Source: Holosporales bacterium (GTDB lineage: Bacteria; Pseudomonadota; Alphaproteobacteria; JAJTHO01). Taken from it: a stretch of DNA of 64,000 bases. The notes beneath the pieces are model-generated. The model did no database searches, was not told the DNA's origin, and saw only the letters and a program-made list of their open reading frames with translations. The stretch covers positions 14,191 through 78,190 of the forward strand of contig JBKCUA010000002.1 in assembly GCA_046318675.1 (NCBI GenBank), given 5' to 3'. Position numbers and translations under genes: made by a program. Of this stretch, positions 44,167 to 47,854 are shown piece by piece; the first letter of the stretch is position 1; each line of letters starts with the position of its first letter.

Positions 44167-44172
44167 GGGGGG

Positions 44173-45063
44173 TCATCGCTTCTGAAACGCGCTTTCCATC
44201 ACGTTCAACACTCCCAAGATAACCTCCTTCACCCGCCGTTTGACGCTGGGCAGGGGGGTGAGGGCCTTGAGGGTAGGAAGCTCCAGGCACGGCAGGTGGG
44301 CGGCCTCGGGCAGGGCTTTGACAAACTGTTGGTGCAGCCAGCTCCCCTCCGGCGGGAGGATATTCTTCGGGATAGCCAAGCGGCGCAGGATTTCATTCCA
44401 TAAATGATAGGTATATGCACCTTGACAGAGCCTATCCATTTCTTCCGTTTTATCGGGATGCAACGCCAGCAGCGGTGCCAGATAACTGACAGGATAGAAC
44501 GCTTGCGGGGGTAGGGCAACACCCTGCATATTAAGGCGGGTGAGCACCCTTGTGAGCAGGCCGGGGCCAATATACGCCCATGGGAAATCGGTGCCGCTGG
44601 TGGCGAGTTCTTCTAAAAGGGTGTGCTGAAGGCTGGCATCGGGGATATGCAGCACCCCAACGCTGATAGTCTTTTTATCCTCACGACCACACACAATATT
44701 TTTGCCGCTAGCAAGGGCAGTAAAATCCCCTGCCGGGCGCAGGCAAATGACATCGGCATCAAGCCACCAGCCTGGCTCTTTGCTGAGCAGGGTAAATCGG
44801 AATGCATCGGAAAAAGCGGTTATATTGGCTTTCATGCCGCCTTGGGTGTACTTACCCAGATCGGATCGGGGGAGAATCTCCGCCGCGTCCCGGCGCACGA
44901 CCCCCGTGGGGACTTCCAGCGGATCAAAGCACCACAGATGCACAGTAAACCCTTTTTGAACAAAGGAGGCCATGCAGGCACGCTCATAAACAGACAGAGG
45001 GCGGCCATGCCAAAAGAAGTGGGCGGTTTCAGAATTGCTCATGATAGCAGGGTATTCCCTCAA
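44173..45063 (-). CDS. GT32-like (Gly_transf_sug / capsule-synthesis type) DXD glycosyltransferase
   Basis: N-terminal HFFWHG...LSVYERACMASFVQKGFTVHLW and central AFSDAFRFTLLSKEPGWWLDADV (DxD) match the glycosyltransferase sugar-binding DXD family. Host-like GC. Sits 7 bp upstream of rluC on the same strand. Start may be Met at 45040. Confidence 0.5.
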   Translation of the reverse strand: MREYPAIMSNSETAHFFWHGRPLSVYERACMASFVQKGFTVHLWCFDPLEVPTGVVRRDAAEILPRSDLGKYTQGGMKANITAFSDAFRFTLLSKEPGWWLDADVICLRPAGDFTALASGKNIVCGREDKKTISVGVLHIPDASLQHTLLEELATSGTDFPWAYIGPGLLTRVLTRLNMQGVALPPQAFYPVSYLAPLLALHPDKTEEMDRLCQGAYTYHLWNEILRRLAIPKNILPPEGSWLHQQFVKALPEAAHLPCLELPTLKALTPLPSVKRRVKEVILGVLNVMESAFQKR

Positions 45064-45174
45064 GGATGCTTTACCCTGTTTAAGTCAGAAGGGTGATGCT
45101 GGCAATGGGTAACGGTTCAGGCTGAACAAGGTAGTCTCAATGGCTTCACCCCCCTTTTTACTGGATACCAGCCG

Positions 45175-45235
45175 TGGCGGTCTGGCTGCTGGGGCGGGAG
45201 GGGTGCTGTACCAGTTTCATCAATACCCCCATGGC
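45175..45235. repeat. 61-bp perfect direct repeat, copy A (displaced 3'-end remnant of the FTR1 permease gene)
   Basis: Identical to 46661-46721. On the minus strand it encodes AMGVLMKLVQHPSRPSSQTA followed by a diverged tail TAGIQ* and G-run. Confidence 0.9.
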
Positions 45236-45269
45236 AGCATAATATTTTGCATTAATAAAAATAAAATAC

Positions 45270-45300
45270 TTGACGAATATATATATATATTAATCTAATA
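45270..45300 (+). promoter_or_regulatory. candidate sigma70-type promoter with a (TA)7 tract in the spacer
   Basis: TTGACG (45270-45275), (AT)7 at 45277-45290, then -10-like TAATCT/CTAATAAT about 70-85 bp upstream of the 421-aa ORF. Confidence 0.4.
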
Positions 45301-45368
45301 ATGGCGGTGGCTTGGACACGGATAATAATCGGCCTTGAACCACCTAACCACTGGCAACGAAGGTAACC

Positions 45369-46634
45369 ATGATAGGAGTAGGTATGACGGAAGAGATGCA
45401 GGTAACAGCAGCAGATAGGGCGCGGGCTAGTCAAGTACTGGCAGCATATGAAGCCTTCAAAAAACAGAAAGACGATTTGCCGGGACTTCTAGTAGATCGT
45501 ATAGAGCGGTGGGCTAAAAAAGTTGAAGGTGTTCTTGAAAGTGAAGGTGTTCTTGAAAAAAATGTGCACCCACAGCAGGTTAAAACGCTCGCCGCATTAC
45601 AAGAGGAAATTGTAGAAATAAATCTAGCAATGCAAGAAGGATGGCCTGACTTCAAAGGGTATGTAGGCTGTTCTTTATCAGCGAACGAAGGCAAAGAAGT
45701 TAAGAGTTTGTTCGAGATCGTAATGAATGGTGAAGCATTACCTGATAACCTCTTATTTAAGAGTATTGAAAAGGTTTTGGGTGCTGAACTTTTGGAAAAA
45801 CTAAATAAGTGCCAAAATGCAGATGATAAAGATAAAGCTTTGGATATTGTTATTTCTACACGTGTAAGGAAAGATTCTAAGAATATCCACCAGAATATCG
45901 ACCCAAGCAGCGATAGTCGTAAATACATAGATTATGTCACTCTTAGCCAAGCGTACGAAAAGGGAATAGAGGAAGTTTTGGAAAATCGCAGGCTTGTTAA
46001 AAATTTTTTCGAGGCTGGTGGTAGTGTCGATGCCGAACTTGTAAAACAGCTCAATACAACTATTATGCAACACAAATTGCGGGATATTTTTAACAAAGAC
46101 CCCCTTGTTCTTGATGAACAATCTTTCATAAGAGCGATTTTGCAGGAAAATCCTCAAGATTTCAAAGAACCGACAACCCAAGTATTCGATGGAATTGTTC
46201 GTGCTATCTGCAAGGCTAATGAGGCGGCGGTGCATGAATTGCGATGGCAATCTGAAGATAGAGCACGCTTTCCCGACCTATATCTGCCGCCGTACCCTAT
46301 CAAGATTGCAAGTATATTACGTGAGACGGATAAGGTCAAACAATGGGTAGACACTGGAGAGTTGATGCAGGAGCTTGGAACAAAACGTCGAATGATAGAT
46401 TTGCAAGCGGGTACCGTGAAGAGCTTTTCCGACCTATCGGATGTGCTTCAGGATGAAATCAACAGGATTATTGCACTCGACGATCCAGACTCGCGTGGGG
46501 CACAATCGTGTTATTTTCTACACCGGCTAACTTCTGGATATAGCAATGAATACGCAAAAGAGTTAGCGTCAAAGCGGCAACAATCCGCAACCTTAGCCGT
46601 ACAGGTCACCCAGCAACTTGGGAGAGAACGCTAA
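45369..46634 (+). CDS. hypothetical protein, low-GC orphan (no recognisable domain), cargo of the repeat-flanked insertion
   Basis: 421-aa ORF. The probable real start is ATG 45384, preceded by GGAG. AT-rich codon usage contrasts with neighbours. No signal peptide or TM segment. Acidic/helical composition. Confidence 0.55.
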   Translation: MIGVGMTEEMQVTAADRARASQVLAAYEAFKKQKDDLPGLLVDRIERWAKKVEGVLESEGVLEKNVHPQQVKTLAALQEEIVEINLAMQEGWPDFKGYVGCSLSANEGKEVKSLFEIVMNGEALPDNLLFKSIEKVLGAELLEKLNKCQNADDKDKALDIVISTRVRKDSKNIHQNIDPSSDSRKYIDYVTLSQAYEKGIEEVLENRRLVKNFFEAGGSVDAELVKQLNTTIMQHKLRDIFNKDPLVLDEQSFIRAILQENPQDFKEPTTQVFDGIVRAICKANEAAVHELRWQSEDRARFPDLYLPPYPIKIASILRETDKVKQWVDTGELMQELGTKRRMIDLQAGTVKSFSDLSDVLQDEINRIIALDDPDSRGAQSCYFLHRLTSGYSNEYAKELASKRQQSATLAVQVTQQLGRER

Positions 46635-46643
46635 TACCCCCCC

Positions 46644-47486
46644 TCACGAAACCCCCGCCTTGGCGGTCTGGCTGCTGGGGCGGGAGGGGTGCTGTACCAG
46701 TTTCATCAATACCCCCATGGCGATCAGGGTTGCGGCATAGACGGCGACCTGCATTCCCGTGGGCTGATCGGTATAGCCCATGAGGGCGTGCAGGGCTTTG
46801 CCGCCGTAGCTATCCTGCGCCACAATGCCGGAGCTGTCCCAAAGAATATCCGCCCATAATTCAATAACCCCTGCTTGGTGCAGGTACGCTACCGCCTGTC
46901 CGGCCATGCCGGCAGCCAACAGGGCGATAAGGACGCTGGTCACGGCAAACATCTGGCGGGTGGGAATGCGAATCAGGCCAAAGTACATGGTTGCGCTGAT
47001 AACAACCCCGCCCAGCAGGCCAATGCCCCCACCTAGCAGCATGGAAGCTATAGTATTGCCGCCCGATACCGCAATCCCGTATAAAAAGAGCACAATTTCG
47101 GAGCCTTCCCGCAACACCGCTACTGCCACCACAATCGCCAGTGCCGCCAAGGAGCGTCGCCCGTGGGCGACAGCCTCTCCCAGCACCCGCAGCTGTTGCG
47201 CCATATGCCGACCATGCTTGGCCATCCAGACATTATGCCACGTCAGCATCAGCACGGCGAGGATCAGAACACTGGCGTTGAACACTTCCTGTCCCACCCC
47301 GGCCATCAGGCCAGCCAGAGAGCTGGCAAACATCGCTACTACGCAGGCACCGGCAACACCGCCCGCAATCCCGTAACTGACCCAATGCCCTCGGTAAGGA
47401 ACACCGCGGGTGGCGGCCAGCACAATGCCAACAATGAGGCCGGCTTCGATGACTTCACGAAAAACAATGATGAGGGTGGCGAGCAT
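46644..47486 (-). CDS. high-affinity Fe2+ permease, FTR1 family (FtrC/EfeU-like)
   Basis: 7-TM profile with two RExxE iron-binding motifs (REVIEAG in TM1 and REGSEIV in TM4). Confidence 0.8.
   Translation of the reverse strand: MLATLIIVFREVIEAGLIVGIVLAATRGVPYRGHWVSYGIAGGVAGACVVAMFASSLAGLMAGVGQEVFNASVLILAVLMLTWHNVWMAKHGRHMAQQLRVLGEAVAHGRRSLAALAIVVAVAVLREGSEIVLFLYGIAVSGGNTIASMLLGGGIGLLGGVVISATMYFGLIRIPTRQMFAVTSVLIALLAAGMAGQAVAYLHQAGVIELWADILWDSSGIVAQDSYGGKALHALMGYTDQPTGMQVAVYAATLIAMGVLMKLVQHPSRPSSQTAKAGVS
46661..46721. repeat. 61-bp perfect direct repeat, copy B (functional 3' end of the FTR1 gene)
   Basis: Identical to 45175-45235. Encodes the last residues ...AMGVLMKLVQHPSRPSSQTA KAGVS* of the permease. 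Confidence 0.9.
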
Positions 47487-47521: not shown

Positions 47522-47854
47522 TTACTCGGCGATAATCACGCCTTGGGCGGTTTTTTCGTTGAACTCCCCCTTAAACGGGTAGGTGCCGGGTTTTAAAGCA
47601 CGAACGTGGAGGATGGCCTCGCCCTTGCCAGTGATGACTTTTTCAAGCTTGAGGGGATAGCTTTCAAATTCTTCGGGGGTGGGATCAAGGTTTTTGACCT
47701 TGAGAGTAAAAGCCTTGCCGGCGGGAACCTTGATTTCCGAGGGGGTGAAGCGGTGGTCGCTGATGCTCAGCTCATAAACTTTTTTATCTTCGGCAATTGC
47801 TGGTGCCGAAAACGCGGCCAAGGCCACAACGGCCAGAAAAAACAAGCGACGCAT
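47522..47854 (-). CDS. periplasmic cupredoxin-like domain protein (FtrB-like)
   Basis: Signal peptide MRRLFFLAVVALAAFSAPAIA, about 90-aa beta-sandwich cupredoxin-like profile (FTPSEIKVPAGKAFTLKVKNLD...GTYPF). Immediately upstream of FTR1. No obvious Cu ligands. Confidence 0.5.
   Translation of the reverse strand: MRRLFFLAVVALAAFSAPAIAEDKKVYELSISDHRFTPSEIKVPAGKAFTLKVKNLDPTPEEFESYPLKLEKVITGKGEAILHVRALKPGTYPFKGEFNEKTAQGVIIAE

What the first reader, a model, noticed from the sequence alone, without database searches (positions are those of the whole stretch)
45175..46721. Perfect 61-bp direct repeats bracket a 1.5-kb low-GC insertion at the 3' end of the FTR1 iron-permease gene
Positions 45175-45235 and 46661-46721 are identical (TGGCGGTCTGGCTGCTGGGGCGGGAGGGGTGCTGTACCAGTTTCATCAATACCCCCATGGC). 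Copy B is the real 3' end of the minus-strand FTR1 gene (...MKLVQHPSRPSSQTA-KAGVS*). Copy A, 1486 bp away, encodes the same 20 residues on the minus strand. It then continues into a diverged tail and stop (TAGIQ*) and a similar G-run, so similarity extends beyond the perfect core. This is the classic footprint of an element that integrated into the 3' end of a protein-coding gene while carrying a replacement gene end. The displaced original end is left at the far junction, as att-flanked islands do at tRNA or protein gene ends. The bracketed DNA carries a (TA)n promoter region and a single AT-rich 421-aa orphan ORF. No integrase is present, so it is either a decayed island, a satellite mobilised in trans, or a recombination scar.
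Basis: seen in the sequence. Interest (0 to 1): 0.8.

Follow-up and report, generated by a model that had tools for sequence, protein, structure and literature searches.

The report
Single-gene insert patching FTR1 gene end
One strain of an uncultured Holosporales bacterium carries a 1.5-kb insert with a single gene of unknown function in the last codons of its iron-permease gene; the insert supplies a replacement gene end, other strains show the untouched site, and this is a tidy but fairly ordinary example of a known kind of gene gain.

Summary
Positions 45175-45235 and 46661-46721 are a perfect 61-bp direct repeat, the only long repeat in the window.

The window comes from a Holosporales MAG. 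Seven loci from the same species (flanks 97.6-99.8% identical) and a sister species all lack the 1,486-bp segment. Two Logan contigs (L055, L056) show exactly the predicted empty site: FTR1 body, one copy of the 61-mer, the copy-A tail (TAGIQ*), then the glycosyltransferase gene.

So copy A plus its tail is the displaced native gene end. Copy B's tail (KAGVS*) arrived with the insert and keeps FTR1 intact.

The cargo is one 416/421-aa all-helical ORF. It has no homolog among about 15 billion proteins and no Pfam, PHROG, PADLOC, NCBIfam or PDB match.

No integrase or transposase is present in the insert or anywhere in the 64-kb window. The repeats form no hairpin, and no terminal inverted repeats were seen by eye.

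The most likely mechanism is one reciprocal crossover between a small circular DNA carrying an FTR1-3'-end mimic and the chromosome. The enzyme would be a recombinase supplied in trans or host recombination, but this step is inferred, not shown.

It is a new member of a known kind, resembling e14/icd, CIMEs and the recombinase-less H47 island. Interest is moderate to low.

The parts
45158..45235 (-). Displaced native 3' end of FTR1. It consists of repeat copy A (45175-45235) plus the native tail T-A-G-I-Q-stop (45158-45174). It is the distal junction, equivalent to attR when read in the direction of the gene.
   Evidence: Translation. Identical to the single-copy gene end of the empty-site contigs L055 and L056.
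45141..45174 (.). Native sequence downstream of the core. It is weakly homologous to 46627-46660 (15/29 to 15/34 matches).
   Evidence: P about 0.003 for the 29-bp register.
45236..45368 (+). AT-rich leader of the insert, with a (TA)7 tract. A possible promoter is TTGACG (45270-45275), an 18-bp spacer, then TCTAAT. AGGAG at 45374-45378 lies upstream of the alternative start at 45384.
   Evidence: Read from the sequence. The strict consensus scan did not list this promoter. The leader has no significant structure. The promoter is inferred only.
45369..46634 (+). ORF421, the only cargo gene (416 aa if it starts at 45384). It is an ORFan, predicted all-helical, with no transmembrane segment evident and unknown function.
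   Evidence: ORF. GC1/2/3 of 0.57/0.33/0.37 is a coding-like pattern. No family hit in Pfam, PHROGs, PADLOC or NCBIfam. Only self hits in the 5.8-billion and 1.84-billion protein libraries. No PDB, plasmid or phage match. AlphaFold2 pLDDT 42.
46644..46660 (-). Replacement FTR1 tail K-A-G-V-S-stop brought in by the insert. It lies 9 bp from the ORF421 stop, and the two genes converge.
   Evidence: This tail is absent from all empty-site alleles.
46661..46721 (.). Repeat copy B. It is the junction next to the gene (attL-equivalent) and now forms part of the functional FTR1 ORF.
46644..47486 (-). FTR1-family iron permease, the target gene. It is kept full-length (280 aa) by the replacement end.
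   Evidence: Pfam PF03239, E=6e-34. The occupied and empty alleles are both 280 aa long.
45236..46721 (.). The 1,486-bp unit that conspecific strains lack. It comprises 1,425 bp of unique DNA plus one copy of the repeat.
   Evidence: In every relative the BLAST breakpoints fall at window 45235 and 46654, with a 68-bp overlap in the query. Logan unitigs L048 and L049 equal window 45206-46690 and 45206-46689.

Best explanation
This is a recent, strain-specific, integrase-less mini-island. A 1,486-bp unit sits in the last 20-25 codons of the FTR1 iron-permease gene of a Holosporales bacterium.

Proposed mechanism: a small circular DNA carried ORF421, its AT-rich leader and a roughly 95-bp mimic of the FTR1 3' end. 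The mimic has 61 bp identical to the host and about 34 bp diverged, including its own 5-codon tail and stop. One reciprocal crossover inside the 61-bp identity inserted the circle Campbell-style.

That single event explains three things. It duplicates the 61-mer as attL/attR-like direct repeats. It joins the FTR1 body to the element's tail (KAGVS*), so the permease stays full-length. It strands the native tail (TAGIQ*) at the far junction.

Recombination between the two repeats would excise the unit and restore exactly the empty allele seen in other strains.

The unit encodes no recombinase. The crossover must therefore be catalysed in trans, either by an integrase of an unsampled helper element or by host recombination (RecA-dependent or RecA-independent).

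ORF421 is accessory cargo, not mobility machinery. My best guess is a strain-specific host-interaction or effector-like protein, as expected for an AT-rich ORFan in a lineage of protist endosymbionts.

Shown: the repeat, the insertion polymorphism, the polarity of native and imported ends, the preservation of FTR1, and the absence of a recombinase in the window.

Inferred: the circular intermediate, the enzyme, and the function of ORF421.
For: The repeat is perfect and unique. The source is a Holosporales MAG.

Empty site: L055 and L056 equal the window's FTR1 body, one 61-mer, the copy-A tail and the GT gene. Near the junction they differ from the window only at 46660 and 46656 (the imported tail) and at 45135. 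Five more conspecific loci are empty, with flanks 97.6-99.1% identical and breakpoints at 45235 and 46654. The sister species, with FTR1 80% identical, has cysG-cupredoxin-FTR1-GT-RluA with no insert.

The occupied state is seen in the MAG contig, in the JGI contig L001 and in two Logan runs. The Logan unitigs end exactly k-1=30 bases inside each repeat copy. This is what a 61-bp repeat produces in a k=31 assembly graph.

The event looks recent. The two copies are identical, although population alleles differ at 3 of the 61 sites. The displaced end also matches the empty allele.

The flanks show almost no co-transferred divergence: FTR1 has no window-specific SNP and the left flank has one, at 45135. 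This fits a clean insertion better than replacement by a large donor fragment.

The tail homology (15/29, same stop position, P about 0.003) and the Lys codon shared with the other host haplotype suggest that the imported end is a true FTR1-end homolog.

FTR1 C-terminal tails vary widely across 120 relatives, so the tail swap should be tolerated.

No integrase or transposase was found in the window.

Precedents: e14 in icd, which leaves the icdC fragment (PMC13626634); CIMEs (PMC5704250); and the recombinase-less H47 island, which excises and integrates through its direct repeats (PMC5426353).
Against: No circular form, attP junction or excision event was observed. Public k=31 unitigs cannot distinguish the integrated form from a free circle plus an empty chromosome.

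No helper integrase was identified. Only 64 kb of the genome could be inspected.

No related element uses the FTR1 3' end in 33 more distant FTR1 loci. No copy of the 61-mer was found in viral contigs, and the insert has no match in the plasmid or phage collections. There is thus no sign of a family of elements that target this site.

Identity drops sharply from 61/61 to about 50% in the tail. A donor copy diverging evenly would not look like this. The pattern needs either homogenisation of the core by repeated recombination or conversion, or an unrelated tail.

No FTR1 with a KAGVS tail, which would mark a possible donor lineage, appears among the 120 best relatives.
Confidence: 0.65

Rival explanations
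1. Decayed remnant (a CIME in the strict sense). A larger ICE, IME or prophage with its own integrase integrated site-specifically at the FTR1 3' end. Internal deletion then removed everything except ORF421 and the two att sites.
For: The att-like repeats and the replacement gene end are typical of integrase-driven elements (PMC5704250, PMC13626634). There is no recombinase between the repeats. Genome reduction is common in host-associated lineages (general knowledge).
Against: The insertion is recent: the repeats are identical, the displaced end is undecayed, and the flanks are 99.2-99.8% identical to empty strains. This leaves little time for both integration and near-total decay. No larger relative is found at this site in any of the 8 close or 33 distant loci. 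The interior holds no pseudogene debris; it is one tight ORF plus a 133-bp leader.
Confidence: 0.15
2. In-situ illegitimate insertion. A linear piece of foreign DNA of 1,425 bp was captured at a staggered break or during replication repair in the FTR1 3' end, with a 61-bp target duplication. On this reading the new FTR1 tail is a fortuitous read-through into foreign DNA.
For: The jump from 100% identity to about 50% at the core/tail boundary. No recombinase. No other copy of the element anywhere.
Against: A stop at exactly the same codon position has a chance of about 4% (my estimate, (61/64)^5 x 3/64). The tail shows 15/29 matches followed by a G-run (P about 0.003). The A-G residues are conserved, I/V is a conservative change, and Lys is shared with the second host haplotype. 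To my knowledge, target duplications of 61 bp are not a known product of bacterial transposition or end-joining. No terminal inverted repeats were seen when the two ends were read by eye.
Confidence: 0.1
3. Assembly artefact or mixed state. The unit is really a free 1,486-bp circle, such as a tiny plasmid or an excised form, that shares 61 bp with an empty chromosome. The assembler threaded it into the FTR1 locus.
For: For k of 61 or less, the integrated form and the combination of circle plus empty site have identical k-mer content. The only Logan evidence is an isolated 1,485-bp unitig. L001 is 100% identical to the window, so the JGI and NCBI contigs may not be independent.
Against: Two deposited assemblies, the 118.9-kb MAG contig and the 9.7-kb JGI contig, both show the integrated order. 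JGI assemblies normally use k up to 127, longer than 61 (my knowledge, not checked here). ORF421 matches no plasmid replication protein family.
Confidence: 0.05
4. Ancestral presence with repeated precise loss. The duplication and ORF421 are old, and the strains scored as empty lost the segment by recombination between the repeats.
For: Recombination between 61-bp direct repeats gives exactly the empty allele. L055 and L056 could therefore be revertants.
Against: The second haplotype group (3 SNPs in the core, KAGIQ tail) and the sister species are both empty and show no trace of the segment. The two copies show zero divergence, although the site is polymorphic in the population. ORF421 occurs in only 4 datasets, while at least 8 contigs are empty.
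Confidence: 0.05

Closest known systems
Prophage e14 (and phage 21) integrated in the icd gene of E. coli
   Same: The element integrates inside the 3' end of a protein-coding gene and supplies a slightly different replacement 3' end, so the gene stays functional. The original end is stranded at the far junction as a pseudogene fragment (icdC). Excision recombines the two ends (PMC13626634, citing Hill et al. 1989).
   Different: e14 is about 15 kb and, to my knowledge, encodes its own integrase and excision functions. The unit here is 1.49 kb, carries one ORFan and has no recombinase. Its replaced segment is about 78 coding bases.
CIMEs (cis-mobilizable elements) of streptococci
   Same: Both are flanked by attL and attR at the 3' end of a target gene and lack integration and transfer genes (definition in PMC5704250).
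   Different: CIMEs are recognised as decay products of ICEs or IMEs whose relatives occupy the same site, and an incoming ICE mobilises them by accretion. No relative and no cognate integrase is known here. The insert also looks recent and compact rather than decayed.
Microcin H47 genomic island of E. coli
   Same: Both are small islands without any recombinase, flanked by direct repeats. The H47 island excises as a circle and re-integrates using host functions, independently of RecA (PMC5426353).
   Different: The H47 island is 13 kb with long imperfect repeats, and the paper does not describe it as patching a gene end. Its excision was shown by PCR, whereas nothing was shown experimentally here.
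Circular-intermediate resistance cassettes that integrate by homologous recombination, such as the pcp-mediated cfr(C) circle in Campylobacter coli
   Same: A small circle forms between direct repeats and re-inserts through homology with the recipient (PMC10770853).
   Different: Those circles arise between duplicated whole genes or IS copies and carry resistance genes. Here the homology is a 61-bp piece of a chromosomal gene end.

Membership tests
Site-specific integrative element at a gene 3' end (prophage / ICE / IME type, e.g. e14-icd) | Direct repeats (attL/attR) flank the element | tested here: met
   A 61-bp perfect repeat, 68 bp with 2 mismatches.
Site-specific integrative element at a gene 3' end (prophage / ICE / IME type, e.g. 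e14-icd) | A single-copy empty site (attB) exists in related genomes | tested here: met
   L050-L056 and L057 are empty. L055 and L056 are the exact predicted attB.
Site-specific integrative element at a gene 3' end (prophage / ICE / IME type, e.g. e14-icd) | The element supplies a replacement 3' end that keeps the target ORF intact | tested here: met
   FTR1 is 280 aa in both the occupied and the empty alleles. The tails are KAGVS* and TAGIQ* respectively.
Site-specific integrative element at a gene 3' end (prophage / ICE / IME type, e.g. e14-icd) | The element encodes its own tyrosine or serine recombinase | tested here: not met
   ORF421 has no Pfam, PHROG or NCBIfam hit. No other ORF of meaningful length lies between the repeats.
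Site-specific integrative element at a gene 3' end (prophage / ICE / IME type, e.g. e14-icd) | An excised circular form with attP exists | not testable with these tools
   This needs reads spanning more than 61 bp or PCR. k=31 unitigs carry no information on it.
CIME (cis-mobilizable element) | attL and attR are retained while integration and transfer genes are lost | tested here: met
   Repeats are present and no recombinase or transfer gene is found.
CIME (cis-mobilizable element) | Derived from an ICE or IME whose relatives, with a cognate integrase, use the same target site | tested here: not met
   No element lies at the FTR1 3' end in 8 close loci or in 33 distant loci. No viral-contig match to the 61-mer and no plasmid or phage match to the insert. 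Sampling is limited, so the negative result is weak.
CIME (cis-mobilizable element) | Mobilised in cis by accretion with an incoming ICE | not testable with these tools
   Requires experiments.
Recombinase-less island moved by host recombination between its direct repeats (H47 GI type) | No recombinase in the island, and flanking direct repeats | tested here: met
Recombinase-less island moved by host recombination between its direct repeats (H47 GI type) | Demonstrated excision and integration through the repeats | not testable with these tools
   Only the two end states, occupied and empty, are seen in different samples.
Integron gene cassette | An attC site (imperfect palindrome forming a hairpin) at the cassette end, with IntI/attI context | tested here: not met
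   The repeats and junctions fold no better than shuffles (z +1.1 to +1.3). No integrase in the window.
IS / transposon | Transposase, terminal inverted repeats and a short target-site duplication | tested here: not met
   No transposase domain. No inverted repeat pairs the two ends of the insert. A 61-bp duplication with imperfect extension on one side is not typical of a target-site duplication.

The most novel reading that the evidence does not exclude
The 1.49-kb unit may be a self-sufficient or helper-dependent minimal mobile cassette of a kind not yet described. It would be a tiny circle whose only non-cargo feature is a built-in patch of a host gene end, serving both as its attachment site and as a repair kit. 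Such a cassette would let ORFan genes shuttle between strains of an endosymbiont without an integrase of their own. In the most extreme version, ORF421 is itself a recombinase of an unknown fold.
Probability: 0.05. Interest if true: 0.8.

Novelty: new member of a known kind. Interest (0 to 1): 0.33.

Why it matters
This case documents, at base-pair resolution and with the empty site in hand, how a host-associated alphaproteobacterium from a poorly known order gained a single ORFan gene without damaging the housekeeping gene it landed in. If the unit turns out to be mobile without its own recombinase, it would add a very small example to the short list of recombinase-less islands. It would also suggest one route by which strain-specific orphan genes spread in endosymbiont populations. 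As it stands, it is a clean textbook-style case and not a new principle.

Tried and rejected
Function of ORF421:
- AlphaFold2 without an alignment gave pLDDT 42. No fold search was run, because matches to such a model would be meaningless.
- Nothing usable came from Pfam, PHROGs, PADLOC, NCBIfam or PDB.
- Both large protein libraries returned only self hits.
- tblastn against the plasmid and phage collections found nothing.
- ORF421 has no paralog in the window or in any fetched locus.

Search for a donor or sister elements:
- Two fragments of the 61-mer found nothing in viral contigs.
- The whole unit found nothing in plasmids.
- None of the 120 best FTR1 relatives ends in KAGVS.
- None of 33 more distant FTR1 loci has a second copy of its own gene end within 10 kb. 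An 18-bp match in L026 was inspected and judged to be chance in GC-rich DNA.

Structured att site or RNA:
- Rfam gave no hit.
- The repeats and the leader show no significant hairpin.
- No degenerate third copy of the repeat lies inside the insert. The extra TGGCGGT at 45302 is within chance expectation.

General mechanism in this species:
- The neighbouring epimerase indel between strains has no flanking repeat longer than 8 bp.
- No other repeat of 24 bp or more exists in the window.
- The repeat-flanked insertion is therefore a one-off here.

dif/Xer (IMEX) idea: rejected by eye. The repeat is GC-rich coding sequence, and the junction GCATAATATTTTGCATTAAT does not match the XerD arm of the dif consensus as I recall it.

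A Logan look-up of the downstream RluA gene (L058) did not reach the repeat and added nothing.
Full report
**1. The observation**

The 61-mer occurs exactly twice in the window, at 45175-45235 and 46661-46721, with no mismatch. None of 100 shuffles gave a match. With two mismatches the repeat extends to 68 bp (45168/46654), and the spacing is 1,486 bp. No other direct repeat of 24 bp or more exists in the 64 kb.

On the minus strand, copy B is the end of a 280-aa ORF (46644-47486) that is a clear FTR1-family permease (Pfam E=6e-34). Copy A translates to the same 20 residues and then T-A-G-I-Q-stop.

On the side facing the insert, identity stops dead at 45235/45236. On the tail side it decays instead. 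There are 15 of 29 ungapped matches, the stop sits in the same codon position and a G-run follows. Against window background this has P of about 0.003.

The bracketed DNA has lower GC than its neighbours (0.33-0.48 against 0.54-0.63).

**2. Source organism and context**

Exact protein look-ups identify the source as a metagenome-assembled Holosporales bacterium: NCBI MFN7901272-76 on a 118,859-bp contig. The same sequence is held as a 9,743-bp JGI contig.

The surrounding genes are housekeeping genes: ribosomal proteins, SecY, AcrB, sigma-54, PBP2/RodA, ThrRS, GlmU, DnaJ, NAD-GDH, YhdP, AsmA, RluA, CysG, MraZ/MraW and ArgRS. None of the ORFs of 150 aa or more that were scanned (nearly all of those in the window) is an integrase, transposase or phage protein. 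There are no tRNA genes in the window.

The genome is compositionally patchy. Core genes range from GC3 0.36 to 0.75, and ORF421's GC3 of 0.37 falls inside that range. The local GC step therefore proves little on its own.

**3. The decisive result: the empty site exists**

The 90% cluster of the FTR1 protein contains two other 280-aa alleles.
- P0003 is identical to the window protein except that it ends ...QTATAGIQ, which is the copy-A tail.
- P0004 ends ...HSSRPSSHTAKAGIQ.

P0003 is encoded on two Logan contigs, L055 from SRR33769872 and L056 from SRR33769832. P0004 is encoded on at least six contigs from JGI and Logan samples.

In all of them the gene order is cysG-cupredoxin-FTR1-glycosyltransferase, with nothing in between.

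At the nucleotide level the relatives match the window at 97.6-99.8% on both sides. The alignments break at window 46654 and 45235 and overlap by 68 bp in the query, so each relative has one copy of the repeat.

L055 and L056 read as the window's FTR1 body, one 61-mer, the copy-A tail and the downstream DNA. Close to the junction the only differences are at 46660 and 46656 (the imported tail) and at 45135.

The next species out (FTR1 80% identical, GCA_046304995.1) has the same gene order and no insert.

Three conclusions follow. The segment is an insertion polymorphism within a species. The native gene end is the one now at the far junction. The tail KAGVS* came in with the insert.

**4. Age and cleanliness of the event**

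The two repeat copies are identical, although the two host haplotype groups differ at 3 of the 61 positions. The displaced end has not decayed.

FTR1 carries no window-specific SNP, and the left flank has a single one, at 45135. The insert therefore did not arrive inside a larger diverged donor fragment.

Occupied sites are seen in four datasets: the MAG contig, JGI 3300057178, SRR31514794 and SRR31514666. Empty sites are seen on at least eight contigs from more samples.

The two Logan unitigs that carry ORF421 span window 45206-46690 and 45206-46689. They end 30 bases (29 at one end of L049) inside each repeat copy. A k=31 assembly graph does exactly this at a 61-bp repeat. The result confirms the repeat in independent runs, but it cannot tell an integrated unit from a free circle.

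**5. The cargo**

ORF421 (45369-46634; 416 aa from the ATG at 45384, which follows AGGAG) has a coding-like GC1>GC3>GC2 pattern. It contains an internal 18-bp tandem duplication.

It has no detectable relative:
- only itself among 5.8 billion clustered proteins and among 1.84 billion representatives scanned exhaustively;
- no Pfam, PHROG, PADLOC or NCBIfam family at a meaningful score;
- no PDB sequence match below E=0.3;
- no plasmid or phage match.

AlphaFold2 without an alignment predicts an all-helical protein at pLDDT 42, which is too poor for a fold search.

ORF421 converges on FTR1, with 9 bp between the two stop codons and no terminator-like site.

Its function is unknown. My working guess is a strain-specific host-interaction protein. 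This rests only on its being an AT-rich, hydrophilic ORFan in a lineage of protist endosymbionts, which is general knowledge about Holosporales and not a test made here.

**6. Mechanism**

A single reciprocal crossover between the chromosome and a circular DNA carrying an FTR1-end mimic explains every feature at once:
- the direct duplication;
- the chimeric junctions;
- the intact FTR1;
- the stranded native end;
- the fact that recombination between the repeats would regenerate the observed empty allele.

What catalysed the crossover is not shown.

Points for a site-specific integrase acting in trans:
- The architecture is that of e14 in icd, with its stranded icdC fragment (PMC13626634).
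- It is also that of ICE, IME and CIME elements at gene 3' ends (PMC5704250).

Points against a site-specific integrase:
- No helper was found, and no related element occupies this site in 8 close and 33 distant loci.
- The 61-mer shows no hairpin, and no dyad symmetry was seen by eye.

Points for host recombination:
- 61 bp of perfect identity is, by general knowledge, above the minimum needed for RecA-dependent exchange.
- A recombinase-less island that excises and integrates through its repeats independently of RecA is documented, the H47 island (PMC5426353).
- Small circles that re-insert by homology are also known (PMC10770853).

One observation remains a puzzle. Identity drops sharply from 61/61 to about 50% in the tail. 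That is unexpected if the mimic were simply the same gene end from a diverged lineage. It suggests either that recombination homogenised the core, or that the tail has a different history.

**7. Rivals**

- A strict CIME origin, meaning a large element that decayed. This is possible but sits badly with the youth and compactness of the insert.
- An in-situ illegitimate capture with a 61-bp target duplication. This would make the tail similarity and the matching stop position coincidences (about 4% and about 0.3% respectively), and I know of no precedent for it.
- An assembly artefact. It cannot be excluded from k-mer data alone, but two deposited assemblies show the integrated order.
- Ancient presence with repeated loss. 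The empty second haplotype, the empty sister species and the zero divergence between the copies all argue against it.

**8. Verdict**

The feature is a new member of a known kind: an att-flanked mini-island with a replacement gene end. It is unusual only in being very small, lacking an integrase and carrying a single ORFan.

Interest is moderate to low. It would rise sharply if the unit proved to be mobile without its own recombinase.

Noticed in passing
window 49162-52564 (ORF 49174-52662, minus strand), compared with L050 4571-8325: The AT-rich 1,162-aa ORFan between cysG and mraZ is replaced in a conspecific strain by a 1,272-aa ORF at the same position. The two proteins are only 28% identical (E=4e-121), while the flanking genes are 97.6-98.3% identical at the DNA level. 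This is a hypervariable or allele-replacement locus and may be more interesting than the finding itself. Neither protein family search (Pfam, PHROGs, PADLOC, NCBIfam) gave a hit for the window ORF.
   Followed up: partly
window 44170-44179 (junction of the GT and RluA genes), compared with L051 4066-5707: Some conspecific strains (L051 and the 224-kb JGI 3300059473 contig) carry an extra 1,643-bp segment here with a 328-aa NAD-dependent epimerase. The window strain and L053 lack it. No direct repeat longer than 8 bp flanks this indel, so it arose by a different route from the ORF421 insert.
   Followed up: partly
window 45524-45558: A perfect 17-bp unit is repeated at an 18-bp spacing inside ORF421 (TGAAGGTGTTCTTGAAA twice). 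It encodes EGVLES and EGVLEK and looks like a recent in-frame slippage duplication.
   Followed up: no
window 47798-47826 (5' part of the cupredoxin gene): A cluster of six SNPs (47798, 47810, 47814, 47821, 47822, 47826) separates the window strain from all seven conspecific relatives. The adjacent FTR1 gene is almost invariant. This may be a small recombination tract or a fast-evolving signal-peptide region.
   Followed up: no
whole window: Base composition is strongly mosaic, with GC from 0.36 to 0.66 per kb. Core genes range in GC3 from 0.36 (PAS sensor) to 0.75 (cysG). GC-based detection of foreign DNA is therefore unreliable in this genome.
   Followed up: partly
window 46635-46643: After the insertion, ORF421 and FTR1 converge with only 9 bp between their stop codons and no terminator-like site. 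Transcription of ORF421 would probably run antisense into the cupredoxin-FTR1 iron-uptake genes. This is an inference only.
   Followed up: no
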